A DNA stretch of 64,000 nt from a virus: the IMG/VR virus record IMGVR_UViG_3300020417_001379, positions 5,021 through 69,020 of that record. One strand, written 5' to 3'. Below the pieces are notes generated by a model. That model did not search any database, had not been told where the DNA came from, and was given only the letters and a program-made list of their open reading frames with translations. The stretch's first letter is position 1. Every line of letters starts with the position of its first letter. Shown here one piece after another: positions 7,229 to 47,435 of this stretch. The position numbers and the translations under genes are program-made.

Positions 7229-7238
7229 GCGTGATTGT

Positions 7239-10200
7239 ATGGTTAGAAAAGTTAAAGACAAATATAATGTATGGCTTGTAGGCTACTACGATGACTTCAA
7301 TGGTGCGAGAGCCATACCGAATGACGATAACTCACCGGATAACACAAACATTGGTGATTACTCACACGCTTTTACGCACTTTGGTAATCCTCTTAACGGA
7401 GAGGCAACACTTAACCCTCGTTACAGATGGTCTTATTATGATAGAACCACAGTAAGCGGATACCCAAACGCTGACGAGCCTTATATGTTTTCTCTTGCTA
7501 CTAACAGACTTTTACACAATAAAGGAGCGTTTGAATGGTTATCTTTTGATACTATTAGAAACCGACCTAACAAACAACAAGGGCGCTCACAATTACAATA
7601 TCCCGATGGGCACACAAATACTAACAAATTTAGAATTCACCCATTTACTAACGGTGGTAATGACGCATACCAAATGTTTTCTAATGGGCACGATACATTA
7701 GGTAGATATATAGTCCCTACGGGTGATATTGATAGCACCTTTGGTAGAAGAGATATGCAGGGCTATGGCTCTACTTACACAAGCAAAACAGATGGTAAGA
7801 ATTCTTGGGTTAAAGACTCAGAGATGGGTGGCTCTAATCACGGTGTTGATGACGGCATCACTATGGTTCGCAGGGCACATTTAGCAGGTAAATGGATGGG
7901 CGAAGCGTTTAAGTATAGTAGTGCCTCAGAAGACAAACCGTTGAATGTTTTTGCACCTTTAGAATCCCCTTCCGGTATGCCTTTCTTATGCGTCCAACAA
8001 TACAACCAAACAGGTAGCAACAGCACCCCCTCTATACCTACTATTTATTATGACGGGACTTTGAATTCAAGAGACACGCACGATGTTTTACATTTCCGAT
8101 TAGCGGTTAGAAGTTTTGAAGGAACACCAAATGATTCTGATGCAGGTAAAATAACCCCTAAAGTAACTATCAAGGCGGGATACACAAGTGGGCCAACACC
8201 AATAACTACTTCCGGTGTAACTGATATGGAAGGCGGACTAACAGGAACAGCCGCTATATCCTTTGACCTCGATTTAACAGATTACGATACACACCCTCAA
8301 TTGTATAAAGGTAACGATACTAAATTAACCTATAACAACGATGATTCTTGGATAGATGTTGATGTGGTTTTAGACTATGATAACAACACATACAAGGTAT
8401 ATCAAGACGGTAACTTAAAATCTACAACAGGAAGTTTTACTGCGTCTGCCGAAGACCTATATGGTTGGGAAATATATATGCACCCCGCAAGCGGAGACAA
8501 CAATGTAACTTCAACGCTTATGTTAGATAGAGCGGCGCTATGTAGGCCACTAACAGATGACCCCGCCGATAGAGACCTGCCGCCTTTAGATAACCTTAAT
8601 ATTGAGACTGTAATAAACGGTTATTCTTCCTGTGGATTCAATCTGATAGATTCTGCGGTTAATTATGAAGAGGCGCAATATGGATTTTCAACAGATAATT
8701 ATAGTCATAATTTTACTTCAATGTTTTCCGGTAACAAATTATCAGATTGGGGTATTGTAGTTTTTGCAGGTGCGGGAGAAACCGGAAGTAAAGATATACC
8801 AAGAATAGATAGACCTATATGGAGAGGATTGATAAGTAATATAGGCATTAAAGAAAAAGCAAACACCAATGACCGCATTATATCTTTTGTAGCGCAGGAT
8901 AGTTTATCTCTCTTAGACAAACAAATACCGATGTGGGAATTAGGACAAAACAAAACAAACACATTAGAAACCTTTAGCCCCTATTGGTCTTATAGCGCAG
9001 AGGGTCTAAAAGAAGCAATGGATTTGGGGGCTACTTCCCTTAAGCAATTCGCGGCAAATATAGGAAGAACAAAATTAACTAACCACGAAAACACATTAGA
9101 CCAAAGAACGCAATTACAAACAGGCCACCCTATACAAATGTATAACAATGAAGATGCTAATGGGCCAAATGATTTGGAAGATGATTACGAAGGAGCGGGT
9201 ATTGATTATATTTTTAGAGACAATACCGGAGTAAGAATAGTGCTTACAGGTAATCCAAATGTAGGTGCTTCCGGTAATATAGTTATAGACAATACAGGAC
9301 AGGCATACGATGGTAGAACCTTAGCAATAACAGCGCACCACAGTATAGATGACGCAGGTAACATAGTAACTTATAATTCTGCGCATTCGCAAGAGGTTCT
9401 TACTATTGCTCATGGTTCGGGCACAGGACAAATACCCTTTGTAGATAACTACACAAATCATATAGCATACATAGGAAAATATGTTGGCCCATTAGTAGCA
9501 CATGACGACCCTAATTATTCTTTTGTAAGTTATACAACAGACAGCAATATACCTGTGCTAAGACGCTTTAACAATTATATGCAATTTATAGAAATGAATC
9601 CGGCTACCTTTGAAAATAGTAGAGGTTCTATTGGCGGACTTAGAATAACAAATCAAGGTTCGGGATATACAAAGGAAGCAGGATACTATACTTTGATAGG
9701 TGGCGTAAAGCATAACAGAGGTTTAATTAATTTACCTGCACCTGTTAATCAAGACCCAAGCGCTTACCCATATTGGGCAGGAGAAACAGCAATAGCAGAA
9801 TGGGAGTCAAATTATTCTTACACACAACCTACTTCATCTCCGGCCTCTTGGGAACACGGAATAGATTGGAATAAAGGTGAAATAACAGATGTTACGATAA
9901 CTAACGGCGGTAAGGGGTATTACAGCATACCCGACCTTACAGGCGTAGATAGAGTATTGGGAGAAACAGGAACGGCGTTTTCTAACAACGGTATTAAGAG
10001 TGTTACTGTGAATTCAAGCAACGGTTGGCCTACACAGTCGGGCACAAGCACAGGTTTGGCTACTACTGTTACACAAAAACACATAGTAAGTGGGACAACC
10101 GTAAATCCAAGTAACCCAAACGATTATGGCGGTTATTTCTTCGCAACAAGTGGTAGTCATTCTACTTCTTCTACTAACGATGCTATATTAGAGGTAAGTA

Positions 10201-13200
10201 TAACCCCCGACTATTCCGGTAGTGGAACAATATCAATAGATGTTCTCAAAGCCGGTGGTGGGCTTGGCGCTCCATACGCAGTTAATGATACTTTAGTGAT
10301 AGTAATACCCTTTAATAATCCGACCGCTACGCAATTAAATATATTTGTTACCGTTAGCGAATTAACAGAAGATGCAGAATTTGAAGTTATACCCGCAGAG
10401 CAAGCCCACACAAACACTTTGAATTTCTTTATGGATACTCAATACGCTGATGTAATGTCTTCTCTACAAGCAGGAGACGAGTTTGTTGTATCGGATACAA
10501 ACGCCACAAGTTACATTAGAGGAAAACATATTATTAAGAGCATAAAAAAGGTATTGAATTTTCACGGAATACCCACCGATGACGCAAGGCGTTATCTTTG
10601 GTGCATACAAACATATACTGATATTCACCCTTCATTCCCCGAAGGACAGCAAGCCTCACAGGGCGGCTACGGAAATTTCAATGAAAAATGGGGACTCTTA
10701 GGCTCACAAGATTATTGGAAGGAATCATGGAGAAACAACGAAAGGTTGTCTTGGAACAAGAAAATTACAGGGACTATAACACCCAAACCCGCAAGTATGA
10801 CGGAAGACATTTCTTCAAGAGGAATACACGCTCGTTGGATGAGAGATTTGCCTAAGTCTTTATGGTTTAGGTATCATTTTGCTTCTATACAGTATAACGC
10901 AACAGCGACTATGAACGCACAAGGCGCTATAAGTGCAGGTGCAACAGAAGTAGAAATAGACCAAACCACCTTTAATAAAATAGATAATTCCGGTATAGTA
11001 GAGATAGTAAGAGCAGGAAAATCTGTGTCTTATGATACTCGTAAAGACACAAGAGATTTCTTTATCTACAAATGTAAATACGAAGAGGGCGGTCAATGGT
11101 TTATAGGCGGTTGTAAATACATTAGTTTAGACCACCCTACAAATGTTGTGGCCTACAATGCCGACTCTTCGTATGTAGTAACGCCTACTTTACTTAAATT
11201 TATAGACAACAAAGATTCGTATAAACATATTTGGTTGCTTTGGGCTGATATGAGAAATGATGGTTTGGCTGACGCAGACGGCGGCAAAAGAAAAAAGGTA
11301 TTTGGGTTACAAACACCTACTATTGATAATTATTCAGTAGAATTACAATTTGACGACCAAGTAGATGATGACGGCAACCCGCAATCTTGGACTGAGTTAA
11401 GACATGGAGAAGATTACAATATGTGGGATACAGATTCTACTTTGGATGATTCAACAGGCGGCGCGTTTTCAAAACCATTAGATTATGATAATGCAGTAGC
11501 AATAAACGGCAATGCAGTTAGTAGTGTAAATAGTAAGTTAAGTATTAACAAAACAAGTCATGGTCTAACAACAGGAGATTATGTGGGGCTGATTAACTTT
11601 GTGCAGGGCGCTAACAATTACGATGGTGTATATACTATAAGCGTTACAGATGCTAATAATTTTGTTGTTAATGTGGCTTACTCAAGCGGTATAAGTGGGA
11701 CTTCAAACAGATATTTTTACGCGGCTACAACGGGTAGCGATAAAGACGAAACACAATACCAAGATTGGGAAGACAAGGGCGGAGCGTTTGTTATAGTAGA
11801 TACAAGTAAATTCTTTAATCTTAATACTTTAGCCAATAGAGGTAGAGTAGGGCAAGACGGTGGCGGAGAAACAGATGTTGGAGATTATACAGCAATAGGT
11901 GTAGGAGACCCTGTTTTGGTTGATTCTTATTATAGGAATGCACCATCTACAACAGCGACTACAAATAGTAATTATAGAAAACACCCAAGACTAAACAAAT
12001 TAGTGTCTCTAAATACCGAGTTAGCAAGTAGCGTTAATGCAGGTCATTTTTGGTTAGAGCCTACTGACGCTACAATGTTTGAAGATACGGGCGTAGGTAA
12101 AATAGTGGGTAAAAAATTAGAAGGCACATTAAATTCTACCTTTTACTTTACTTGGAATGGTAGGGTAGAGTCCGATATACAACACACAAATGTAACCGTA
12201 GCAACGCCTAATACATTGCATACTTATTGGTCTATAACTAAAACAGGCGCTACATTTATTTCAGATGGAGTAAAAGCAGGCGCTTATGTAGAAAATGTAT
12301 CAAAACCATTGGTAGCGGGTGTAGGAGATTCTTGGAAAACTTCTCATGTGCAGAAGCATTATTACAGGGTAAAAAAAGTAGTATCTGAAACACAATTACA
12401 AGTCGAAAGAGTATCATACTATAATGGTAGTATGTCCTACAATGTTCATTTAAGTAGCGAAGATTTCTCCGGTTGGAGAAATGGCTTATACAAAAGAAAT
12501 GGTGGTTTTACTCAAGATATGATAGATGATGGTTGGGCAACAGGTCATACTCTAAAGATATGCAAACAATTATTTAATGTAATGCTTGATAGTGTTAATT
12601 CCGGTGAATTTGATAGTGAGTGGAGTCCGGCAAGTATAAAGGCAGAATTCACAGATAGATTAGAAAAAGATGTAGGGACAAATTTTGATGTTAATTATCC
12701 TTATGCTTCTACGGGAGTAATATTAGGTCAATTTGATGAGACATTGGTTTATACCTCTACGGCTAATCAATATGCTTACAGAATGATGATGAAAATAAAC
12801 GGTAAATATAAAAATACTAATAGCGGAACATTTTATGAAAGCGATAAAATGAGAGCGCTGTGGTCTCTTTCTTTACTTGATTCTTGGTGGGCAAAAACAA
12901 GATTAACTTCTATCTTTGATATACAAAATGTCCCTATTACGGAAAATATGACTACTTACAATACAAATTCTACTTACGATTCTTATGGTAGTATTTTCGA
13001 TAGCAATGGAAAGCAATTGATGAAGACTATAAAGGAAAATCAAAAGATGGCGGGCGTAGGGGATGAATCTTCTACCTTTACATCATTTTCGTGGTTAGTA
13101 GGTAGAGATAATAGGATTGATTTCAGACCTAAATATAATAGCGGTTATAATATTACAAGAGATAAAGTAAAAATATCAGATTTCAATATGATTCAATCTA

Positions 13201-15260
13201 CAAGAATAGATAATGTGAGAGTAAGATATAATGGTGGTAATAGTTTTGTAGATTACCCCGAACCTGCTGTTAGCGATACCACATCTTGGAAAATAATTGA
13301 TATGCCTAAAGTATTAAAAAGTAGCGAAGCATTAGTAATAGCAGAAAAGGAGTATAACGCTCGTAAGAAAAACCCATTACAATTAAATGTAGCAATGTTA
13401 AGACACAATACTGATGATAAAGACAGTATGTTAGATGGTGGCCGCTATGGGTATATAGCAGATGCTCAAGTAGCCTTACAAGGAAATGCAGACAACGCTC
13501 TTGGAACAGCATGGTGTTGGACTATTATGGGAACAGGGGGAGTGCCCTTTTCCGGTATGGTAAATGCTCTTGACGGTAACTTAGGAAGCGTAGTTACATC
13601 ATCTACTCTACATTCAAGATTTGGTTTATCGGATAATACGGGTAGTGGAACAGTAGAGCATCAAGATAATTACAAATGGTATGGTTCTCGCTCTATATCT
13701 AAGGCTTTACAAATAGTCCATGTAGCCAAAGACATACCAAAAATAAGCCCAACCACAGGAGAAAAATTAAGAGTAGTAATTGCCGTAACGCCTAACCAAG
13801 CAACCACTACTACCATAGATGAAGCACAATTTAGAGTTTTATTACTTGATTGCTCTTTTACTACTAACACTTCAAGCGGATATGCTGTGGATTTAAAAGA
13901 AAACATTGAAGGGCATTCCTATGTAGATATACAACACAACGGTTTTTACGAAATGGATATTCCTACTACTTACGGCACAGGTAAGGTAGTTATTTCTTTT
14001 AATGCAGATTATTGCCGAGACCTTTTGAGAAGCAGATGCGGAGACCCAACCGCCACCGCAGGTTCGGGAAGGCTTAATGTATTACACAATTCAGTAGCCG
14101 CTTTAGGAATACCCGTTAATGGAGCATACCCTGTTGTGCTTGATTCGTATAATTATAGTAAAACCATCTTCCCATTAGGTTGTAGGGAATATACGAATAT
14201 GGGTGGGGGCTTTGGTGATGATAGAGCCATGTGGTATGCTCCTACCCTAAACATTGTAGATGATGTTATGTATGTCCCCGCTACTTATGTAAAATACACA
14301 GATGCGGGTTTTGATATTAACAATAAAACAATGGTTATAGATTCGGTATCATGGAAAGTAGGACATAAAAAGGGCGAAGAAATTTTGTTAGGTTTGAGAG
14401 AAGACGAATCAACGGCGGCAGGCGGTGTTATGAGTTATATTTTACAACCTGCACCGGACTTAGGAGACCCTAACTACATTAGTAATGTAACGACAACCGT
14501 TCCACCAAGCGGTAACATTACAGACGAAGTAACACAAGATGTATCTATTAACGGTAAAAACCCAAGCCAAGCGGGTTATTCCGATACCCCTAAGTTAAGT
14601 GTGAATCAAATAAATAGCGGCACATATTCTGCTTTAAACAATTCTATGAATGTAGATGGAAGTAAGTATTCTGCTCAATATGATAATAGTATTTTAGGTC
14701 AAAATGTTATGCCTACTACACCTGCAAGTATGAGAGGAATGCCCGGTGCATTAAGAGTATTCCCAACGGAAGGTTCGGCTACTGAAATAGAAGACGGTAT
14801 TAGTTTGCCGGGAGCAGGTAGAAGAAAATTATTTACAGAAGGCGCGCAGAGGAAGCAAGAGGTTATACACAGAGCAGAAGCAAAGGTCAAATCTCCACCG
14901 GACGCTATCAATGATGAAATAAATGTAACAGCAGACATTAGTTTGCCTCATAGTGTAAATTCGGGAGACGCTGTTTTGTATGTAGATATAACCTGTGCTG
15001 AGACAAGCACGACTATATCTGAAGCCATCTCTATCAAAACAGGTAGTAATATTTCTAATATGCAATTAACTTCTACGGGTATTCTTAGTGGTGCGGGGAC
15101 TACGGGTAATACAATAACAGTAGGGTTATCGAGACAAGCAGGTAAGCGTGGAGACAGCGCAAAATATACAGCCCTAAAGGTAAGCAATCTAAATATTAAC
15201 TTCAAAAGAGCGGCTGTTAATGCGCCATCCTCAAGTAATATATTTAAGCCCTATAATTAA
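7239..15260 (+). CDS. giant tail tip/baseplate-hub and adhesin protein (~2670 aa)
   Basis: Follows tape measure; beta-rich; hub-like segments (IWRGLISNI..., IDNVRVRY..., MVIDSVSW). Confidence 0.75.
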   Translation: MVRKVKDKYNVWLVGYYDDFNGARAIPNDDNSPDNTNIGDYSHAFTHFGNPLNGEATLNPRYRWSYYDRTTVSGYPNADEPYMFSLATNRLLHNKGAFEWLSFDTIRNRPNKQQGRSQLQYPDGHTNTNKFRIHPFTNGGNDAYQMFSNGHDTLGRYIVPTGDIDSTFGRRDMQGYGSTYTSKTDGKNSWVKDSEMGGSNHGVDDGITMVRRAHLAGKWMGEAFKYSSASEDKPLNVFAPLESPSGMPFLCVQQYNQTGSNSTPSIPTIYYDGTLNSRDTHDVLHFRLAVRSFEGTPNDSDAGKITPKVTIKAGYTSGPTPITTSGVTDMEGGLTGTAAISFDLDLTDYDTHPQLYKGNDTKLTYNNDDSWIDVDVVLDYDNNTYKVYQDGNLKSTTGSFTASAEDLYGWEIYMHPASGDNNVTSTLMLDRAALCRPLTDDPADRDLPPLDNLNIETVINGYSSCGFNLIDSAVNYEEAQYGFSTDNYSHNFTSMFSGNKLSDWGIVVFAGAGETGSKDIPRIDRPIWRGLISNIGIKEKANTNDRIISFVAQDSLSLLDKQIPMWELGQNKTNTLETFSPYWSYSAEGLKEAMDLGATSLKQFAANIGRTKLTNHENTLDQRTQLQTGHPIQMYNNEDANGPNDLEDDYEGAGIDYIFRDNTGVRIVLTGNPNVGASGNIVIDNTGQAYDGRTLAITAHHSIDDAGNIVTYNSAHSQEVLTIAHGSGTGQIPFVDNYTNHIAYIGKYVGPLVAHDDPNYSFVSYTTDSNIPVLRRFNNYMQFIEMNPATFENSRGSIGGLRITNQGSGYTKEAGYYTLIGGVKHNRGLINLPAPVNQDPSAYPYWAGETAIAEWESNYSYTQPTSSPASWEHGIDWNKGEITDVTITNGGKGYYSIPDLTGVDRVLGETGTAFSNNGIKSVTVNSSNGWPTQSGTSTGLATTVTQKHIVSGTTVNPSNPNDYGGYFFATSGSHSTSSTNDAILEVSITPDYSGSGTISIDVLKAGGGLGAPYAVNDTLVIVIPFNNPTATQLNIFVTVSELTEDAEFEVIPAEQAHTNTLNFFMDTQYADVMSSLQAGDEFVVSDTNATSYIRGKHIIKSIKKVLNFHGIPTDDARRYLWCIQTYTDIHPSFPEGQQASQGGYGNFNEKWGLLGSQDYWKESWRNNERLSWNKKITGTITPKPASMTEDISSRGIHARWMRDLPKSLWFRYHFASIQYNATATMNAQGAISAGATEVEIDQTTFNKIDNSGIVEIVRAGKSVSYDTRKDTRDFFIYKCKYEEGGQWFIGGCKYISLDHPTNVVAYNADSSYVVTPTLLKFIDNKDSYKHIWLLWADMRNDGLADADGGKRKKVFGLQTPTIDNYSVELQFDDQVDDDGNPQSWTELRHGEDYNMWDTDSTLDDSTGGAFSKPLDYDNAVAINGNAVSSVNSKLSINKTSHGLTTGDYVGLINFVQGANNYDGVYTISVTDANNFVVNVAYSSGISGTSNRYFYAATTGSDKDETQYQDWEDKGGAFVIVDTSKFFNLNTLANRGRVGQDGGGETDVGDYTAIGVGDPVLVDSYYRNAPSTTATTNSNYRKHPRLNKLVSLNTELASSVNAGHFWLEPTDATMFEDTGVGKIVGKKLEGTLNSTFYFTWNGRVESDIQHTNVTVATPNTLHTYWSITKTGATFISDGVKAGAYVENVSKPLVAGVGDSWKTSHVQKHYYRVKKVVSETQLQVERVSYYNGSMSYNVHLSSEDFSGWRNGLYKRNGGFTQDMIDDGWATGHTLKICKQLFNVMLDSVNSGEFDSEWSPASIKAEFTDRLEKDVGTNFDVNYPYASTGVILGQFDETLVYTSTANQYAYRMMMKINGKYKNTNSGTFYESDKMRALWSLSLLDSWWAKTRLTSIFDIQNVPITENMTTYNTNSTYDSYGSIFDSNGKQLMKTIKENQKMAGVGDESSTFTSFSWLVGRDNRIDFRPKYNSGYNITRDKVKISDFNMIQSTRIDNVRVRYNGGNSFVDYPEPAVSDTTSWKIIDMPKVLKSSEALVIAEKEYNARKKNPLQLNVAMLRHNTDDKDSMLDGGRYGYIADAQVALQGNADNALGTAWCWTIMGTGGVPFSGMVNALDGNLGSVVTSSTLHSRFGLSDNTGSGTVEHQDNYKWYGSRSISKALQIVHVAKDIPKISPTTGEKLRVVIAVTPNQATTTTIDEAQFRVLLLDCSFTTNTSSGYAVDLKENIEGHSYVDIQHNGFYEMDIPTTYGTGKVVISFNADYCRDLLRSRCGDPTATAGSGRLNVLHNSVAALGIPVNGAYPVVLDSYNYSKTIFPLGCREYTNMGGGFGDDRAMWYAPTLNIVDDVMYVPATYVKYTDAGFDINNKTMVIDSVSWKVGHKKGEEILLGLREDESTAAGGVMSYILQPAPDLGDPNYISNVTTTVPPSGNITDEVTQDVSINGKNPSQAGYSDTPKLSVNQINSGTYSALNNSMNVDGSKYSAQYDNSILGQNVMPTTPASMRGMPGALRVFPTEGSATEIEDGISLPGAGRRKLFTEGAQRKQEVIHRAEAKVKSPPDAINDEINVTADISLPHSVNSGDAVLYVDITCAETSTTISEAISIKTGSNISNMQLTSTGILSGAGTTGNTITVGLSRQAGKRGDSAKYTALKVSNLNINFKRAAVNAPSSSNIFKPYN

Positions 15261-41434: not shown

Positions 41435-41520
41435 AATACGACCACGCAAGCATTTGCTTATGAACCTGTCGGTCAAGGCCAAAAATCGGAAGGTTTAAGT
41501 GCGGATAGCCTTCCGCCCCA

Positions 41521-42180
41521 ATTACTGCTACCGAGTAGTGGTGTTGGGAGATGGCTCGCCATCCCCTTCGGGACTGAACGATGTAAGATAGTCAAGTAAG
41601 TGAGCGAACATGAGATAAACAGAACGGAAGCACCCGAGCGGAAGTAGTTGAGACACGAAAAGCGACCAAAGGAGGAATACTCAGCACCTATACGCCCCCA
41701 CAGGGTAGGAAAGGAGCATTACTCACCGAAAGACTCCAAGCCTCGCAGGTAGCGGGTGAATCAGAGCAACGAGACACTTGAGGGATACTGAGCGAGGGTT
41801 GTTATGAATCTGTGGCTACGCCTGCCTCTCATTACCGAGAGGTGGGAAAGTCATCATTCATAGGCGAATTAGAACGGGTTTGGTCGGACGAGCAAGGGGT
41901 GTGGAAATCCCTTGAGCGGTGTCGGCTGAATCTTAGTAAGTCCATACCTTAAGCAAGTATGGGGGAAGTAGTATGAAGTGATGTGGCGAAAGAGCAATGA
42001 CCTGCCCACCATCCACCTCAGCGTAACGCGGGGCAATGGAGCGAAATGGTGCGGAGAGGGAGCGAAAGCGGTAGTTAGGTTGAAGGCGTAGGTGAGGGCG
42101 TGGTAAGCCCAAGACCCGTAAAGCGTGCGGTTGGTGGACAGATAGCAGTAAGGCATTCGGAGAATGTTCAGTCCCACCTA
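41521..42180 (+). ncRNA. candidate large ornate ncRNA (~630-660 nt)
   Basis: No credible ORF; promoter TTTAAGTGCGGATAG at ~41495; end pairing 41522-30/42143-51; long-range pairs and many hairpins with UUCG/GNRA-type loops. Confidence 0.65.
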
Positions 42181-42557
42181 TATTTAATGGTGAAAGAAAA
42201 ACAAGAAAATTGTAGCATGAACAAAAAGTAGGAGGTTATTTGTAGCATATAGAAATGTAGGATTGGATTTTTGTAGCAAGAGGCGCGATACCTAACCTTA
42301 ATAAAGGTTTTCTTTTAGGGGTTATTTGTAGCATACTAACTTTGTAGCAAAACACTTGGCGGTGGTATGGATACTTGGTGCATTTTTCACACTAACTTTT
42401 TTTTGTAGCATAAGCATTTTTACACGCGCAACATTTTTTTGTAGCATACTTTTTTTGTAGCAAAGCACGACACGACATTACGCTACAAATTTGTAGCATA
42501 GGGGGGAACAGACTTGCTACAAAAAAACCTTATAAGGGCAACCCCACTCGGAGTATC

Positions 42558-42764
42558 ATGGACAATTACACGAAGCGAGATGAAGCACACACGCATTGCG
42601 ACCATTGCAGGACAGAATACTTTAAGTGTTATATTAGTGAGTTTGGGTATAGCCTGTGGGTATGCAGATGCACCCAAGACGCTTGCCCTCATGGGTTTTA
42701 TAATTTGATGCTCGACAACAGAATTAGCAAGGTAAAAGGCTCGGAGCGTAATTTAGTTTGGTAA
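42558..42764 (+). CDS. cassette 1: small Cys-rich protein
   Basis: ATG 44 nt after motif-promoter at 42514; CDHC...CRC. Confidence 0.65.
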   Translation: MDNYTKRDEAHTHCDHCRTEYFKCYISEFGYSLWVCRCTQDACPHGFYNLMLDNRISKVKGSERNLVW

Positions 42765-42932
42765 AACCCGCAAGAATAGGCAAAAACCGCCTTTTTTCGC
42801 ATGAAAGCAAAAATTTGTAGCATAAGTTAGCGAAAACCCCGTATTGCTACAAATTTGTAGCATAAGGGGGTAAAACCGTAGCCTACCATGCTACAAAAAA
42901 GACTTAAGTAGGGATACCCCGTCCGCTCAAAT

Positions 42933-43088
42933 ATGACGACATGGACGGCAATGACCCCCGCGTATATTGATATGCTATTGGACACGAGACACAGTAAAGA
43001 GGCAAAAGATTTAGCCATTAAAGAATTAATGAAAATGGCTCGTGCCCTTGACGCTTACCAACAGGTATTCGGTATGGAAGAAGAATGA
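42933..43088 (+). CDS. cassette 2a: small helical protein (51 aa)
   Basis: ATG 45 nt after motif at 42888; MTTWTAMTPAYIDMLL...ELMKMARALD. Confidence 0.65.
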   Translation: MTTWTAMTPAYIDMLLDTRHSKEAKDLAIKELMKMARALDAYQQVFGMEEE

Positions 43089-43129
43089 AGCAGGACAAGA
43101 CTTATAAGCAAAACAGGAGTGGAAGAAAT

Positions 43130-43285
43130 ATGGAAGAAGACGAGACGACAGAATATGTGGATATAACACCGAGTAACGAAGGTATGGCTATGATGCTATG
43201 GGAATTAGCAATGAACCATACTGACTATGAAAAGAGAGAATGGGCCAAGATGAAATTAATTAAGGGCTATTTAGCAGGTGAATGA
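43130..43285 (+). CDS. cassette 2b: small helical protein (51 aa)
   Basis: Own TTATAA at ~43102; MEEDETTEYVDITPS... Confidence 0.6.
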   Translation: MEEDETTEYVDITPSNEGMAMMLWELAMNHTDYEKREWAKMKLIKGYLAGE

Positions 43286-43508
43286 GTAACGGAGAATGAG
43301 TAAGACCCAACCCCGCCTCGCCCACGAAGAGGAAGCGTGGAGGACAAGTGCGGGGGGGCATCATTTTTTCGTGCGCGCAAAAATTTGTAGCATAGTGCTT
43401 TTTTGGGGCTACGCATATACGCTACAAATTTGTAGCATACGGAAGTAAATACACACGCTCGATATGCTACAAAAAAACCTTATAACCCCCTACCCCTTCG
43501 GCTCTAAT

Positions 43509-43790
43509 ATGGAGAAAGACGACATACGACTTGACGACTGCGGACATATTGTGATGGATAAGGACATGACTGACCTTTGGGTTAGAACCCCGAAAGGTTT
43601 GATTGCTATACACCTTAACCAATACACCGGCCTTTACCACATGACTGCTTGGAACACCCATGAAGGAAATAAGATGAGCAAGAAAAAAGAGGGCAACGGA
43701 TATTTCAAGATAGCCCAAGAGATGAGCGGAACATATAGCGAGGAAAAAGCAAGATACAAAACAGGCATGATACACACTCCCACGCCTTGA
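43509..43790 (+). CDS. cassette 3: hypothetical protein
   Basis: ATG 45 nt after motif at 43464; followed by GC hairpin and T-run. Confidence 0.65.
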   Translation: MEKDDIRLDDCGHIVMDKDMTDLWVRTPKGLIAIHLNQYTGLYHMTAWNTHEGNKMSKKKEGNGYFKIAQEMSGTYSEEKARYKTGMIHTPTP

Positions 43791-44000
43791 GATACTTTGG
43801 CGTTAGAAGTCGGATACTCGACCCCCCAAAGCGCGCGGGGGGTCGGGTGGCGCATTTTTTATACCCGTTAAAAATTTGTAGCATAGCAACAGTAGGTGTT
43901 GTAAAACACACTAAGTTACAAATTTGTAGCATACCGACCGTGAGAGTAGGATACCTATGCTACAAAAAAACCTTATAAGGGGGTATGGGGTCGCAGGACT

Positions 44001-44264
44001 ATGGAGCGAAGGTTCGCAATGGTATGCCTGCACGAGACAGACACGATGGAAGACGGAACAGTTAGATATATTCCGTGTTGCATTAAAGAGGGAGTCGCCG
44101 GTTACTTCCCTATGAGGGGAAACCCCGACAAGTTACAAAGCGCTTGGTATTGGGGTAAGACGCATGAGGAATGTTCCGAGATATGCGATATTTACAACCA
44201 AGACTTAGGTTTAACGGCTGAAGATGTTAGGGAGATTATAGCAAGTAGCATGAGACTTTCTTGA
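44001..44264 (+). CDS. cassette 4: hypothetical protein
   Basis: ATG 44 nt after motif at 43957; hairpin at ~44270-44300. Confidence 0.7.
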   Translation: MERRFAMVCLHETDTMEDGTVRYIPCCIKEGVAGYFPMRGNPDKLQSAWYWGKTHEECSEICDIYNQDLGLTAEDVREIIASSMRLS

Positions 44265-44439
44265 ATTGGGGCGGGGGTTCTCAACCCCCCCGTTCCTTTT
44301 GGCTCTCAAAAATTTGTAGCATAGGGATTCCTTTTTTGGGCGTAACGAGGTGGGCTACAAATTTGTAGCATACATACCGTAACCACTACTGAGTTATGCT
44401 ACAAAAAAAGGTTATAACCATATACCCCAACCGCGATAC

Positions 44440-44757
44440 ATGAAGCGACAACGCGACATAAGGACGCACAACCGAGACAGGTTCAAGGGCGCGCGCCTCA
44501 ACGATGAAGAAAGAAAGGAATGCGCAAGCATCATGGAGAGACTACGAGGGCAAAAGCCTGCGAGATTCGCAACAGGCACAAGCACACTTGTAGTCCTCAA
44601 GGAGATTGCATGGAGAGAAGCAGAAGGGTCAAGCGGGGACTTGATTTGTTGTATTGTCCGTAATGGTGTGGAAAATACTTGGATGCTACGAGGCAAGAAC
44701 CAAATGAAAGGCAGTAAAGAAAAATTACGAGTAAAGAAGATTCTATGGGGATACTGA
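44440..44757 (+). CDS. cassette 5: basic hypothetical protein
   Basis: ATG 44 nt after motif at 44396; hairpin at ~44775-44803. Confidence 0.7.
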   Translation: MKRQRDIRTHNRDRFKGARLNDEERKECASIMERLRGQKPARFATGTSTLVVLKEIAWREAEGSSGDLICCIVRNGVENTWMLRGKNQMKGSKEKLRVKKILWGY

Positions 44758-44948
44758 GATTCTACGGGTATTGTGGGCGGGGGGACGCATCACCCCCCGT
44801 CCCAAACCTTATGCACGACAGAAATTTGTAGCATAGCGTAACAAACACAACAACAACACACACTACAAATTTGTAGCGTATCTCGGTAGAGAAAACAACG
44901 CTATTATGCTACAAAAAAAGGTTATATATGGATACCCTGTCCGCTAAA

Positions 44949-45238
44949 ATGTAAGTGGGGGGCGAACTGAACACTCGCCCCCATGAAGACCGGAGTTATA
45001 CCCCCGAAGGCAAGTAGGGCAGGTAAAGAGCCGGTGCGTCCCTAACTGCAACGCCAATAAGACAGGATACACGCACACGAGAAGACCCCTCTCCGAGTCG
45101 AGTGAAAAAGGGTGGCCGATATTTTCAGAAAGCGTAACACTTACCCGACCTGCCCACGAGTTAGGCATAACGCGTGGGTTGCCCCTGTTTAGGGGTAAGT
45201 CCCTGTTTGTTCGCAGGCGATTGGTCGGCAATTTTTTT
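44949..45238 (+). ncRNA. cassette 6: candidate structured ncRNA (~290 nt)
   Basis: Standard cassette promoter at 44906 but ATG is followed immediately by TAA; many complementary segments; ends in a T7 run. Confidence 0.65.
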
Positions 45239-45524
45239 AGCGCTCATAAAAATTTGTAGCATATCTTTCTATTGTTTCCGCACGCTACTGAAAGAATAAA
45301 ACGCATGACTGCTACAAATTTGTAGCAATTATTTTATTTCTTCATATATGTTTTAGATTACTTCTCTATTACTAAAAATACTAATGAAAGAATTAATTAA
45401 TTACAAATTTGTAGCGTAGTATAGCGTTTAATTAATTTTGTTGGCTACAAAAACAAAAAAATAAATAACGATGCTACAAAAAAACCTTATAAGCAAATAC
45501 CTTTAGGGTCGGTTTGGTGATACA

Positions 45525-45680
45525 ATGCTAACGCGCAGACACTTTGAGGCGATTGCCTCTATTATACAGATGAAAGAAAGCCGAACAGAAAAAATGATTG
45601 CATACGAGACCATTAGGCCGATTTGCATGGAGAACCCCCGCTTTGATGAAGCCAAGTTTCTCAAGGCTTGCGGGATTTGA
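45525..45680 (+). CDS. cassette 7: small protein with NPRFD..KF..AC motif (51 aa)
   Basis: GGTGA SD; MLTRRHFEAIA...NPRFDEAKFLKACG, a pattern I recall from small phage proteins. Confidence 0.7.
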   Translation: MLTRRHFEAIASIIQMKESRTEKMIAYETIRPICMENPRFDEAKFLKACGI

Positions 45681-45883
45681 GTAGGTTGGGGGTTCGCCCC
45701 CTTCCTCTCTTTTCTTTGGCCGTTAAAAATTTGTAGCATAACGACAACAAAAAAGGCGCGCGTTGCTTACACGCACGAGGCTACAAATTTGTAGCGTAGC
45801 CCGCTTATGCGTGCGCGCGGGGCGTAACACCCTTGACCTATGCTACAAAAAAAGGTTAAATAGGCATACCCCTTCGTCTGTTT

Positions 45884-46027
45884 ATGTGCGAGTATTACGA
45901 CAAGTATTGGGCATTAGTGAAGGCAATAAGAGAAAGCACAGGCAAGGGAACAGAAACACTTGTCTGTATAGATGATATATTATATAACATAGACACAGGC
46001 CAACTCTTCTGCCCTTACGCGCCTTGA
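45884..46027 (+). CDS. cassette 8: small protein (47 aa)
   Basis: ATG 44 nt after motif at 45840. Confidence 0.6.
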   Translation: MCEYYDKYWALVKAIRESTGKGTETLVCIDDILYNIDTGQLFCPYAP

Positions 46028-46282
46028 GCGGAGCGCGTTTGCGCTTATAATCTTTTCTTTAGCGCTGAAAAATTTGTAGCATAACCCCGCAACGGTTTTG
46101 CGCGCACGCGCTTTTCTTGATAAGCCACAAATTTGTAGCATAGGGTGTAAGGGTTTGCGCGCGTGGCGTTTGCCGTATCACACTACAAATTTGTAGCATA
46201 CTTACTCATACACGCTGAAGCGAAAAAGCGCGCGACCTATGCTACAAAAAAACCTTATAAGTAGATACCCGCTCCGATAAAC

Positions 46283-46447
46283 ATGAGCAAGAGAGGCGAG
46301 ATAGTCTTCACCTACAAAGGCATATTAGAGTTATACGACTGCACCTGCTGTAAGGGGACAGATGAATTCCCCGAAGTAGAGCCGGACGAGTCCGGCGTTT
46401 ATTGCTACACCTGCGGGGCTTCAGCCTCGTGGCCTAAGCCCGCATGA
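46283..46447 (+). CDS. cassette 9: small Zn-finger protein (54 aa)
   Basis: ATG 44 nt after motif at 46239; CTCC...CYTC. Confidence 0.65.
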   Translation: MSKRGEIVFTYKGILELYDCTCCKGTDEFPEVEPDESGVYCYTCGASASWPKPA

Positions 46448-46760
46448 GCGAGAGGCCAAATTTTGTAGCATAATTTCTTTAGCCCGTAAAAATTTGTAGC
46501 ATAGCGTGAGCGTTGCGCGCGCAACGGCGCGTAAGTATATAGGTTACAAATTTGTAGCATAGCGCGCTTAACCCTACGCCCCCGCACCTTACTGTATTAG
46601 ACTACAAATTTGTAGCATAGACCGCTTGTGTTCCCCGCCCCCCGTTGCCCCCACGAGTTATGCTACAAATTTGTGGTCTGCCTACTCGCTATTGCTTCCC
46701 CGCTATGCTACAAAAAAACATTATAAGGGGATACCCACCCCGATAGAACGAGGTATCAAT

Positions 46761-47078
46761 ATGGAAGATATGAGATATGAAATGAAAGCAGACTGCGGGG
46801 ACGCTCAAGAGCGTTCCTATGAGTGGGAGCAACCCCACGAAAAAGAGGCGTTTGAAAACGCCGTAGATGGCGTTAAATGCCCTTGCTGTGGGTCAAGCGA
46901 CCTTGTAATGTGCGACCGTGAATTAATGGGTAGAGACACCTATTATGATATGGAAGACGATTGGGGCTACGAAACCTACGAATACAGGTTTTGGGCGCAA
47001 TGCACAGGCGTAGAGAGCGGTGAGTGCAAGCATGACGAATGGATAATGATTTATGGGGAAGTCGAAATAGATTACTGA
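46761..47078 (+). CDS. cassette 10: acidic Zn-ribbon protein
   Basis: GAGGT SD; CPCC...C...C; hairpin at ~47087-47105. Confidence 0.7.
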   Translation: MEDMRYEMKADCGDAQERSYEWEQPHEKEAFENAVDGVKCPCCGSSDLVMCDRELMGRDTYYDMEDDWGYETYEYRFWAQCTGVESGECKHDEWIMIYGEVEIDY

Positions 47079-47435
47079 AAAGGTTTGGGGGGGCTTTGCC
47101 CCCCCTTACGCTTTACTGTGTAAATATTTGTAGCATAGGTTTTTTTAACCCCTAAAAAAATTTGTAGCATAGCGACACACGCGGGCGGGCAAACGCACAG
47201 AGTAACAACGCTACAAATTTGTAGCATAACAACGCTTAACATACCCACCCCCTACCCCCTAAACGCTAAGTTACAAATTTGTAGCACCGACCCCCTACAC
47301 AACGCGCGCGCGAAAGACGCAGGAGTTAAGATACAAATTTGTAGCATGGTTGGTTGTAACGCAAGCGCGCGAGCGAAAAACAAACCGCGCTATGCTACAA
47401 AAAAGAGTTATAAGGGAATACCCCCACCGCCAATC

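What the first reader, a model, noticed from the sequence alone, without database searches (positions are those of the whole stretch)
44906..45238. Cassette whose cargo is a structured RNA with a cloverleaf-like 3' domain
Seen: normal cassette promoter, but ATG-TAA at the expected start (44949). Pairings: GTAAGTG 44951-57 / CACTTAC 45138-44; hairpin 44957-81; ACCGG/CCGGT. The 3' domain is closed by CCGACC 45145-50 / GGTCGG 45223-28 and encloses three hairpins (four-way junction), then a T7 run. GGGCAGGT 45017-24 can alternatively pair with ACCTGCCC 45148-55, which excludes the cloverleaf. Inference: tRNA mimic, decoy/antitoxin RNA, ribozyme or switch expressed as an early gene.
Basis: partly seen in the sequence, partly recalled or inferred. 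Interest (0 to 1): 0.8.

Follow-up and report, generated by a model that had tools for sequence, protein, structure and literature searches.

The report
Structured RNA gene in phage cassette
One small early-gene cassette of an uncultured marine phage carries a folded RNA of about 290 bases instead of a protein gene; it belongs to an RNA family that matches no catalogued family, and its job is still unknown.

Summary
Window 44906-45238 is one unit of an 11-unit array of small cassettes that share one promoter-like element. This unit has ATG-TAA where the others start an ORF, no conserved ORF on either strand, and a GC-rich fold.

Homologues exist in related uncultured phages: L147 and L148 (metagenome contigs), G001a (L094:5107-5420), L165, and L161 (P1/P2 only). 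They support the fold by compensatory changes. In one search, 97.7% of pair cells are paired and 17 of 80 pairs changed on both sides (0/500 shuffles).

The RNA has a 5' domain and a 3' domain:
- 5' domain: P1, P2 with an invariant loop GAACUGAACACUC, and a long irregular P3.
- 3' domain: a four-way junction (P4-P7). Its sequence was swapped wholesale between near-identical relatives while the shape was kept.

ARAGORN and Rfam 15 find nothing, so it is not a tRNA or any catalogued family. The proposed alternative pairing and the 20-aa ORF are not conserved. Contigs from two metatranscriptome runs cover the 5' domain. Relatives carry other cargo in the same slot, so the RNA is accessory.

Function is inferred only. 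The most likely role is a trans-acting early RNA that binds a partner through the invariant loop, for host takeover or anti-defence. This is a new family, of moderately high interest.

The parts
44863..44876 (.). Upstream 14-bp palindrome CTACAAATTTGTAG, one of 17 in the array; putative operator or promoter-associated site of the cassette
   Evidence: (17 matches, 0.04 expected)
44907..44928 (+). Cassette promoter-like element TGCTACAAAAAAAGGTTATATA, shared with 10 other cassettes
   Evidence: 11 exact + strand matches. The sigma-70 consensus scan finds nothing here.
44927..45242 (+). Exchangeable cargo. In two DNA runs of relatives exactly this stretch is replaced by 392 other letters.
   Evidence: joint 44926>45243 in X9 (depth 38.6) and X15 (18.8)
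44949..44954 (+). Start-stop pair ATG-TAA at the slot where other cassettes begin their ORF. A start-stop pair is kept in all members: ATG-TAA, TTG-TAA, GTG-TAA, ATG-TAG.
44951..44957 (+). P1, 5' strand (GTAAGTG); pairs with 45138-45144
   Evidence: helix 1; I11
44958..44982 (+). P2 hairpin. The 8-bp stem covaries; the apical sequence GAACUGAACACUC is identical in 5 of 5 members.
   Evidence: (helix 2: 2 pairs changed on both sides)
44984..45127 (+). P3, a long irregular arm with a variable tip (GUGCG/CGCAC stem, loop of 33 vs 16 nt). It is little conserved in G001a and L165.
   Evidence: (three one-sided changes, all GC<->GU)
45128..45137 (+). Purine-rich linker (GAAAGCGTAA) between P3 and P1; GAAAGC(C)G recurs in G001a and L165
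   Evidence: (alignments)
45138..45144 (+). P1, 3' strand (CACTTAC)
45145..45150 (+). P4, 5' strand of the stem that closes the four-way junction (CCGACC)
   Evidence: 3 of 6 pairs changed on both sides, 100% paired
45152..45179 (+). P5 (hairpin 1). The junction-proximal GCC/GGGU is conserved; the distal part is replaced in L147, G001a and L165.
45180..45197 (+). P6 (hairpin 2), 7-bp stem with a variable 3-4-nt loop
   Evidence: 2 pairs changed on both sides; degenerate in L165
45198..45222 (+). P7 (hairpin 3). The stem covaries. The loop UUGUUC (45207-45212) holds the only GUUC of the RNA and is complementary to GAACA of the P2 loop.
   Evidence: (5 pairs changed on both sides in helices 4-5)
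45223..45228 (+). P4, 3' strand (GGTCGG)
45232..45238 (+). T7 run, a likely transcript end in the window, L147 and L148; not present in G001a or L165

Best explanation
The cassette carries a gene for a stable structured RNA of a family that matches nothing catalogued.

Shown:
- It is read on the + strand.
- It folds into a 5' domain and a 3' domain. The 5' domain has P1, a P2 hairpin with an invariant apical loop GAACUGAACACUC, and a long irregular P3. The 3' domain is a four-way junction (P4 closing stem, hairpins P5-P7).
- It has homologues in at least four other uncultured phage contigs.
- It is accessory cargo that sits in different cassette slots and is replaced by other cargo in close relatives.

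Inferred:
- Transcription starts at the shared cassette promoter a few bases upstream of 44949.
- A ribosome loaded on the shared leader meets a start codon followed at once by a stop. It leaves without unwinding the fold.
- The RNA ends at the T7 run.
- The P2 loop (tandem GAAC) touches the GUUC loop of P7, within one molecule or between molecules.
- The RNA acts in trans early in infection by binding and holding a host (or phage) partner through the invariant loop. This would be a host-takeover or anti-defence decoy.

My odds: functional structured RNA about 0.9; trans-acting binder or decoy about 0.35-0.4.
For: Cassette context:
- The same promoter-like element precedes 11 units.
- This unit alone lacks an ORF.
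- GC is 0.54 against about 0.44 around it.

Homologues:
- A covariance model built from the window fold found L147 (E 5.5e-69), L094:5107-5420 (2.4e-4) and L148 (0.063), three matches at E<=10 in 92 loci (861 kb).
- It also found L165 (1e-14) and the P2 of L161 (3e-5).

Structure:
- On the model-fitted alignment of 4 sequences, 97.7% of 213 cells are paired and 17 of 80 pairs changed on both sides. 0 of 500 shuffles reach this. Slid controls give 37-48% paired and 1-2 such pairs.
- For the 3' domain alone: 96.4% paired, 11 of 33 pairs, 0 of 500 shuffles.
- Without any alignment, the 3' domains of the window, L147 and G001a each fold into a closing stem plus three hairpins (z -4.7, -3.5, -2.8).

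Strand:
- The three one-sided changes in 5' stems between the window and L147 are all GC<->GU.
- Several G-U pairs are invariant.

No coding:
- The 20-aa ORF is not kept.
- The 94-aa minus-strand ORF is broken in L147 and L165.

Accessory and mobile:
- Of 12 metagenome contigs sharing the downstream AT-rich anchor, 4 carry the RNA and 8 carry a protein cassette.
- Cargo 44927-45242 is replaced by 392 letters in X9 and X15.
- G001 carries its copy in the first slot of the region.

Expression (weak):
- Contigs of two metatranscriptome runs from one study cover 44951-45157 and 44959-45135. In X20 nothing else of the 3-kb stretch is covered.

Loops:
- GUUC occurs once per RNA, always in the P7 loop.
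- It offers 5-6 bases complementary to the P2 loop in shifted registers: UGUUC, UGUUCA, GUUCAG.
Against: - No function was tested and no partner was found.
- Pfam on 30 larger ORFs shows no RNA-binding or RNA-processing protein, reverse transcriptase or RNA polymerase.
- The family is small: five loci, with about three independent lineages for the 3' domain and about two for P3. The pair counts were made on alignments fitted to the model.
- The loop-loop contact has no covariation, because both loops are conserved. L161 has no P7.
- The RNA-library evidence comes from contigs. They show neither strand nor ends, and DNA carry-over cannot be excluded.
- The whole-RNA z-score is modest (-1.99; G001a -1.55).
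- The host is unknown, so 'decoy of what' cannot be asked.
Confidence: 0.5

Rival explanations
1. tRNA-like decoy or processing signal. The 3' four-way junction mimics a tRNA. It would then be cut by RNase P/RNase Z, or would soak up a tRNA-directed host nuclease or enzyme, and the 5' domain would be released.
For: - Four helices meet with at most one linker base.
- The closing stem has 6-7 bp.
- The arm next to the 3' strand carries a GUUC(R) loop, as a T arm does.
- The P2 loop could be read as a 7-nt CU-GAA-CA loop (my own reading).
Against: - ARAGORN finds no gene in 64 kb.
- No Rfam tRNA, tmRNA or YrlA match at E<=10.
- The 'D arm' has 11 bp, the 'anticodon' loop has 3-4 nt, and there is no discriminator-CCA (CAAUUUUUUU instead).
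- P6 is degenerate in L165.
- L161 has P1/P2 but no such domain.
Confidence: 0.12
2. Cis-acting primer or R-loop transcript of a replication origin. A non-coding transcript reads into the conserved AT-rich region 45243-45500.
For: - The AT-rich stretch has GC 0.17 and repeats.
- A 29-nt anchor is conserved in 12 metagenome contigs.
- In G001 another ORF-less cassette (L094:8395-8862) also precedes it.
Against: - 8 of 12 contigs with the anchor have a protein cassette upstream.
- The G001, L165 and L161 family members are not next to such a region.
- A T7 run and the junction stem lie between the RNA and the AT-rich DNA.
- Conservation is of RNA pairing, including G-U pairs.
Confidence: 0.07
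3. Conformational switch. GGGCAGGT (45017-24) pairs with ACCTGCCC (45148-55) and so toggles between the junction and an alternative fold.
For: Perfect 8-nt complementarity in the window (I7). It is largely kept in L147, where the 5' arm is identical and CCUGCC is conserved.
Against: - GGCAGG is absent from G001a, L165 and L161.
- CCUGCC is conserved because it forms the P4/P5 junction.
- No ligand or riboswitch family matches.
Confidence: 0.05
4. Self-cleaving or other catalytic RNA.
For: A compact multi-helix fold with invariant unpaired segments: the P2 loop, the GAAAGCSG linker and the P7 loop.
Against: No match to any ribozyme family of Rfam 15 at E<=10. No processing evidence.
Confidence: 0.05
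5. Not an RNA gene: a decayed protein cassette, or a gene on the minus strand (ORF 44944-45231, 95 aa, TTG start).
For: The minus-strand frame is open for 94-97 codons in the window and 88-98 in G001a.
Against: - That frame is broken in L147 (longest stop-free stretch 67 aa; the window's frame survives only as a 36-aa ORF) and in L165 (longest ORF 33 aa).
- The two long translations share only the stretch antisense to P2.
- G-U pairs fit the + strand only.
- Compensatory changes are not expected in a pseudogene.
Confidence: 0.02

Closest known systems
GOLLD and ROOL, large ornate RNAs of phages and prophages
   Same: Phage-encoded, elaborate multi-helix RNAs of unknown function. One part is conserved and another is variable. 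Kissing loops hold them together as homo-oligomers (PMC12286853, passages read).
   Different: - About 290 nt against roughly 500-800 nt and more.
- No Rfam match.
- It sits in an early-gene cassette rather than near tRNA islands.
- Oligomerisation here is only a possibility raised by GAAC/GUUC complementarity.
phi29 packaging RNA (pRNA)
   Same: A phage non-coding RNA made from an early promoter, whose loops are complementary to each other and allow ring formation (recalled knowledge).
   Different: - No match to the Rfam pRNA family.
- This phage has an ordinary large terminase and portal.
- The RNA is accessory, not universal in the clade.
tRNA-like RNAs of phages and bacteria (T4 stable RNAs, bacterial YrlA; recalled)
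   Same: A four-way junction with a GUUC-bearing arm beside the closing stem, attached to a second module.
   Different: The arm and loop sizes are not those of tRNA. There are no ARAGORN or Rfam hits. No Ro/TROVE-like protein was found among the 30 ORFs scanned.
Phage RNA decoys against defence (RNA anti-CRISPRs, pseudo-ToxI; recalled)
   Same: Small non-coding RNAs carried as accessory early cargo and evolving in modules.
   Different: Those are copies of host repeat units. Here there are no internal or tandem repeats, and the host repeats are unknown.
Candidate structured RNAs predicted from IMG/VR (Fremin et al. 2023, PMC10690425)
   Same: Same data source, and the same kind of evidence (covariation in intergenic regions of viral contigs).
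   Different: Their candidates are 29-151 nt and needed at least 3 unique regions (section 2.1, read). Their lists are in supplements that I could not see, so a fragment of this RNA may or may not be among them.

Membership tests
tRNA / tmRNA | Recognised by ARAGORN as a cloverleaf or tmRNA | tested here: not met
   0 genes in the 64-kb window
tRNA / tmRNA | Match to the Rfam covariance models | tested here: not met
   No match at gathering score. None among the 6 chance-level matches at E<=10 in 44700-45500.
tRNA / tmRNA | Canonical arm sizes (7-bp acceptor, 5-bp anticodon stem with 7-nt loop, 5-bp T stem with 7-nt loop) and a 3' CCA or discriminator | tested here: not met
   P4 has 6-7 bp, P5 11 bp with a 4-nt loop, P6 7 bp with a 3-4-nt loop, P7 9 bp with a 6-nt loop. 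The tail is CAAUUUUUUU.
Any Rfam 15 family (including GOLLD, ROOL, pRNA, 6S, RNase P, SRP, Y RNA-like, ribozymes, riboswitches) | Covariance-model match | tested here: not met
   Window: none at gathering. 44700-45500: only snoRNA or miRNA-type chance matches outside the RNA. G001 region: none.
   GAACA (P2 loop) and UGUUC (P7 loop) are complementary, duplex -6.3 to -8.7 kcal/mol. There is no covariation, and it is not known whether the contact is within or between molecules.
phi29-type pRNA | Phage with a phi29-like packaging motor that depends on the RNA | tested here: not met
   A conventional large terminase and portal are present. The RNA is absent from close relatives.
Type III antitoxin RNA (ToxI-like) | Tandem direct repeats of a short unit next to or targeting a toxin | tested here: not met
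   No tandem repeat inside 44949-45240. Direct repeats are at most 11 nt.
RNA anti-CRISPR (repeat mimic) | Sequence and fold of a host CRISPR repeat | not testable with these tools
   The host is unknown. No internal repeat units.
Intrinsic terminator | Simple GC-rich hairpin directly followed by a U run | tested here: inconclusive
   The consensus scan does not call 45145-45238. A U7 run follows P4 in the window, L147 and L148 but not in G001a or L165. Termination may therefore be a local add-on, not the domain's conserved role.
New family proposed here | Start-stop pair, then P1, then P2 with the loop GAACUGAACACUC | tested here: met
   Present in 5 of 5: window, L147, G001a, L165, L161
New family proposed here | 3' four-way junction with CCUGCC ... 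GGUUGC junction bases and a GUUC loop in P7 | tested here: met
   Present in the window, L147, G001a and L165. L148 is cut at P6 and shows P7 and the P4 3' strand only. The junction is absent in L161.

The most novel reading that the evidence does not exclude
The RNA is a new kind of phage counter-defence or takeover particle. This oligomer traps a host factor early in infection. The swappable four-way junction is the face that changes in the arms race.
Probability: 0.12. Interest if true: 0.85.

Novelty: new variant of a known kind. Interest (0 to 1): 0.62.

Why it matters
Phage early regions are read almost entirely as lists of small proteins. Here a slot in such an array is filled by a complex RNA supported by covariation. 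The RNA moves between slots and phages like any other cargo, and its 3' domain is exchanged as a module.

- If it is a binder or decoy, it adds an RNA player to host takeover in abundant marine phages that have no cultured relative.
- The start-stop pair suggests a simple way for an RNA gene to live behind an mRNA-type leader.
- The RNA is small enough for probing, cryo-EM and pull-downs, so the question can be tested directly.

Tried and rejected
- **Public phage records.** DNA searches of the region and of 20 kb around it found no match. The closest cultured terminase is below 26% identical, so no published transcript data apply.
- **Direct sequence search in relatives.** blastn and nhmmer of the RNA against 80 terminase-linked loci found nothing.
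- **Neighbour protein as anchor.** Only G001 encodes it.
- **26-mer and 16-mer anchors in viral contigs.** They returned G001 and L098 only, or chance hits.
- **P2 pattern in 185,579 genomes.** 93 stretches matched. I ranked them by flanking stem length and read only the top 15. None has the start-stop/P1 context. This is no evidence for or against a host copy.
- **3' junction pattern in viral contigs.** 9 stretches matched; 2 are known members and 7 look like unrelated coding DNA.
- **Single-sequence 3' domain model R2.**
  - It found no such domain in L011, L026, L161 or elsewhere in the window, and it missed G001a with default filters.
  - It found G001a only with filters off on a small set.
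  - That alignment (A12) also holds one spurious antisense fragment of P5, which adds only unchanged pairs to helix 2.
- **Other ORF-less cassettes.** L011:7130-7385(-) and L026:7915-8165(-) fold no better than shuffles (z -0.10 and 0.10). G001b (z -2.68) and window 41500-42190 (z -1.05) gave no model hit.
- **Antisense targets.** Only 11-12-mers at about chance level elsewhere in the genome. Sites complementary to the P2 loop are not enriched: 9 against 14.8 expected.
- **Leader-tail pairing.** CGCTAAAA/TTTTAGCG (I5) is not kept in L147 (read).
- **RNA-run contigs.** They do not cover 45158-45240. This shows nothing, because contigs break at variant branch points.
- **Earlier notes of this scan.** None for this genome.

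Full report
**Context**

The window is most of a complete 69-kb virus record (G000). It encodes a DNA polymerase, a clamp-loader-like ATPase, nucleases, a GroEL-like chaperonin, large terminase, portal, tail tube and tail proteins. It has no cultured relative: the best terminase identity in public phage records is below 26%, and there is no DNA match.

An array of small units on the + strand lies between the leftward replication genes and the rightward structural genes, at 42.4-47.4 kb.
- Each unit has a 14-bp palindrome CTACAAATTTGTAG (17 copies with at most one mismatch; 0.04 expected).
- Each has a promoter-like element TGCTACAAAAAA-NNN-TTA (11 exact + strand copies; 0.03 expected).
- Each has a conserved leader ending in ATG, a short ORF and a GC-rich hairpin.

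**The observation**

The unit at 44863-45242 has the same palindrome and promoter (44907-44928). At the usual start position it has ATG-TAA (44949-54).
- Its longest + strand ORF is 41 aa, or 20 aa from ATG. The other units hold ORFs of 51-246 aa.
- The minimum-energy fold reproduces the closing stem CCGACC/GGTCGG around three hairpins.
- By itself the fold is only modestly better than shuffles (z -1.99). The 3' domain alone is much better (z -4.7, 0 of 300 mononucleotide shuffles).
- ARAGORN finds no tRNA or tmRNA. Rfam 15 finds nothing at gathering score in the window, and only chance-level matches outside the RNA at E<=10.

**Finding relatives**

Direct DNA searches failed. I used a conserved 29-nt anchor in the AT-rich DNA just downstream to pull 12 metagenome contigs.
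- Two (L154, L157) carry the identical RNA.
- One (L147) carries a variant.
- One (L148) carries the 3' end of a variant.
- Eight carry a protein-coding cassette in that slot.

L147 is the key sequence. Its 5' 200 nt differ from the window by a few substitutions and one replaced hairpin tip. Its 3' 100 nt are almost entirely different in sequence, yet fold on their own into the same closing stem with three hairpins.

I built a covariance model from the window sequence and the window/L147 consensus fold. In 92 loci it gave three matches at E<=10: L147, L148 and one at L094:5107-5420 in the closest complete relative G001 (E 2.4e-4). A scan of viral contigs for the P2 apical sequence added L165 (E 1e-14 with the model) and L161 (P1 and P2 only). 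L165 comes from a lineage whose cassettes use a different palindrome.

**Structure**

On the model-fitted alignment of the window, L147, G001a and L148:
- 97.7% of 213 pair cells are standard pairs.
- 17 of 80 pairs changed on both sides, and 0 of 500 shuffles reach this.
- Sliding the partners by 1-3 columns gives 37-48% paired and 1-2 such pairs.

For the 3' domain with L165 added, the figures are 96.4% paired, 11 of 33 pairs and 0 of 500 shuffles. One of the five rows there is a spurious antisense fragment that touches only P5.

Caveats: these alignments are fitted to the model, the family is small, and P3 is informed by only two near-identical sequences.

Independent support:
- Three 3' domains fold alike without any alignment.
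- The three one-sided changes in 5' stems between the window and L147 are all G-C to G-U or back.
- Together with invariant G-U pairs, this fixes the + strand as the folded one and argues for RNA rather than a DNA structure.

The resulting anatomy:
- P1 (44951-57 with 45138-44).
- P2 (44958-82), with a covarying stem and the apical GAACUGAACACUC identical in 5 of 5 members.
- A long irregular P3 with a variable tip.
- A purine-rich linker.
- P4 (45145-50 with 45223-28), joined to P1 without a spacer and closing P5, P6 and P7.
- Conserved junction bases CCUGCC and GGUUGC, and a P7 loop with the only GUUC of each RNA.

**What is not conserved**

- The 20-aa ORF survives only in L147, with one replacement and a different end. 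It has no counterpart in G001a, L165 or L161.
- The 94-aa minus-strand frame is broken in L147 and L165. The RNA is 54-58% purine in the five members, and stop codons are purine-rich, so I attribute the stop-free antisense frame to composition (inference).
- The alternative pairing GGGCAGGT/ACCTGCCC exists, but its 5' arm is missing from three of five members.
- A leader-tail pairing seen in the window is not kept in L147.
- The U7 tail follows P4 only in the window, L147 and L148.

**A start-stop pair is conserved**

The start-stop pairs are:
- window and L147: ATG-TAA
- G001a: TTG-TAA
- L165: GTG-TAA
- L161: ATG-TAG

They stand behind three or four different leaders. The stop lies inside P1, and P1 changes around it in L161. 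I read this as selection for immediate release of ribosomes that load on the shared leader (inference).

**Mobility**

- The G001 copy sits in the first slot of the region, next to the divergent 162-aa gene.
- In that slot the window has a 700-nt ORF-less stretch of its own.
- The slot syntenic with the finding holds a different ORF-less cargo in G001 (L094:8395-8862).
- In two DNA runs of relatives, the stretch 44927-45242 is replaced by 392 other letters.
- In L161, the RNA with a remnant of its promoter follows directly on another cassette's ATG.

The RNA is therefore accessory cargo moved by recombination in the shared flanks, and its 3' domain is itself exchanged as a module.

**Expression**

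Two metatranscriptome runs from one study hold contigs over 44951-45157 (X19) and 44959-45135 (X20). X19 also holds pieces of two neighbouring cassettes, and X20 holds nothing else of the 3-kb stretch. This is weak support. Contigs give no strand or ends, and DNA carry-over is not excluded.

**How it may work**

No known family fits. No RNA-handling protein was found among the 30 larger ORFs scanned. The following features fit a trans-acting RNA that binds a conserved partner, in the manner of known phage RNA decoys or of the ornate phage RNAs:
- accessory status;
- position in the early-type array;
- an invariant 13-nt apical loop on a covarying stem;
- a modular, fast-changing second domain;
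- high stability.

The P2 loop (tandem GAAC) is complementary to the P7 loop in shifted registers: UGUUC in the window and L147, UGUUCA in G001a, GUUCAG in L165. This suggests a loop-loop contact, within one molecule or between molecules. ROOL, GOLLD and OLE use such contacts to form RNA-only oligomers (PMC12286853, passages read). None of this is tested.

The origin-primer idea is weakened because most contigs with the AT-rich anchor lack the RNA, and other family members are not next to such DNA.

**Novelty**

Nothing matches in Rfam 15. Two literature searches turned up no description. The search terms are general and would not retrieve a sequence-level description, so this is weak evidence that the RNA is undescribed. 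The IMG/VR-wide catalogue of 10,006 candidates (PMC10690425; abstract and section 2.1 read) lists motifs of 29-151 nt in supplements I could not open, so a fragment may be listed there without function.

I rate this a new RNA family of a known broad kind: phage-borne structured RNAs of unknown function.

Noticed in passing
window 45243-45500: An AT-rich spacer (GC 0.17 at 45314-45402) with TGAAAGAAT repeats and palindromes. A 29-nt anchor is conserved in G001, L098 and 12 metagenome contigs whatever cargo lies upstream. Candidate origin or regulatory hub.
   Followed up: partly
window 41483-42180: About 700 nt without an ORF behind a cassette-type promoter, at the slot where G001 carries its copy of the RNA. 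It is purine-rich, with fold z -1.05. It holds GAATGTTCAGTCC (42162-74), complementary to 8 of 9 bases of the P2 loop.
   Followed up: partly
L094:8395-8862 (G001): The cassette syntenic with the finding is also ORF-less. It starts TTG-TAG and folds well (z -2.68, 0 of 100 shuffles), but is not matched by the models. It may be a second RNA cargo family.
   Followed up: partly
L011:7130-7385(-), L026:7915-8165(-): Further ORF-less cassettes in related phages. L026 is GC-rich against its neighbours (0.47 vs about 0.35). Their folds are no better than shuffles.
   Followed up: partly
window 42483-47344; L012-L015, L026, L165: The palindrome in front of each cassette changes between phage lineages while keeping its two-fold symmetry: GCTACAAATTTGTAGC, ATCTACAAATTTGTAGAT, CCAACAAATTTGTTGG, CTACATAATGTTATGTAG. 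This suggests the operator of a dimeric regulator or a hairpin element.
   Followed up: no
window 44926/45243 (runs X9, X15); L161:4960-5030: Cargo exchange with exact borders (392 other letters in relatives). There is also a nested arrangement in which the RNA with a promoter remnant follows another cassette's ATG.
   Followed up: no
window 7221-15260: A 2679-aa ORF with no PHROG, Pfam or PDB sequence match, next to tail genes.
   Followed up: partly
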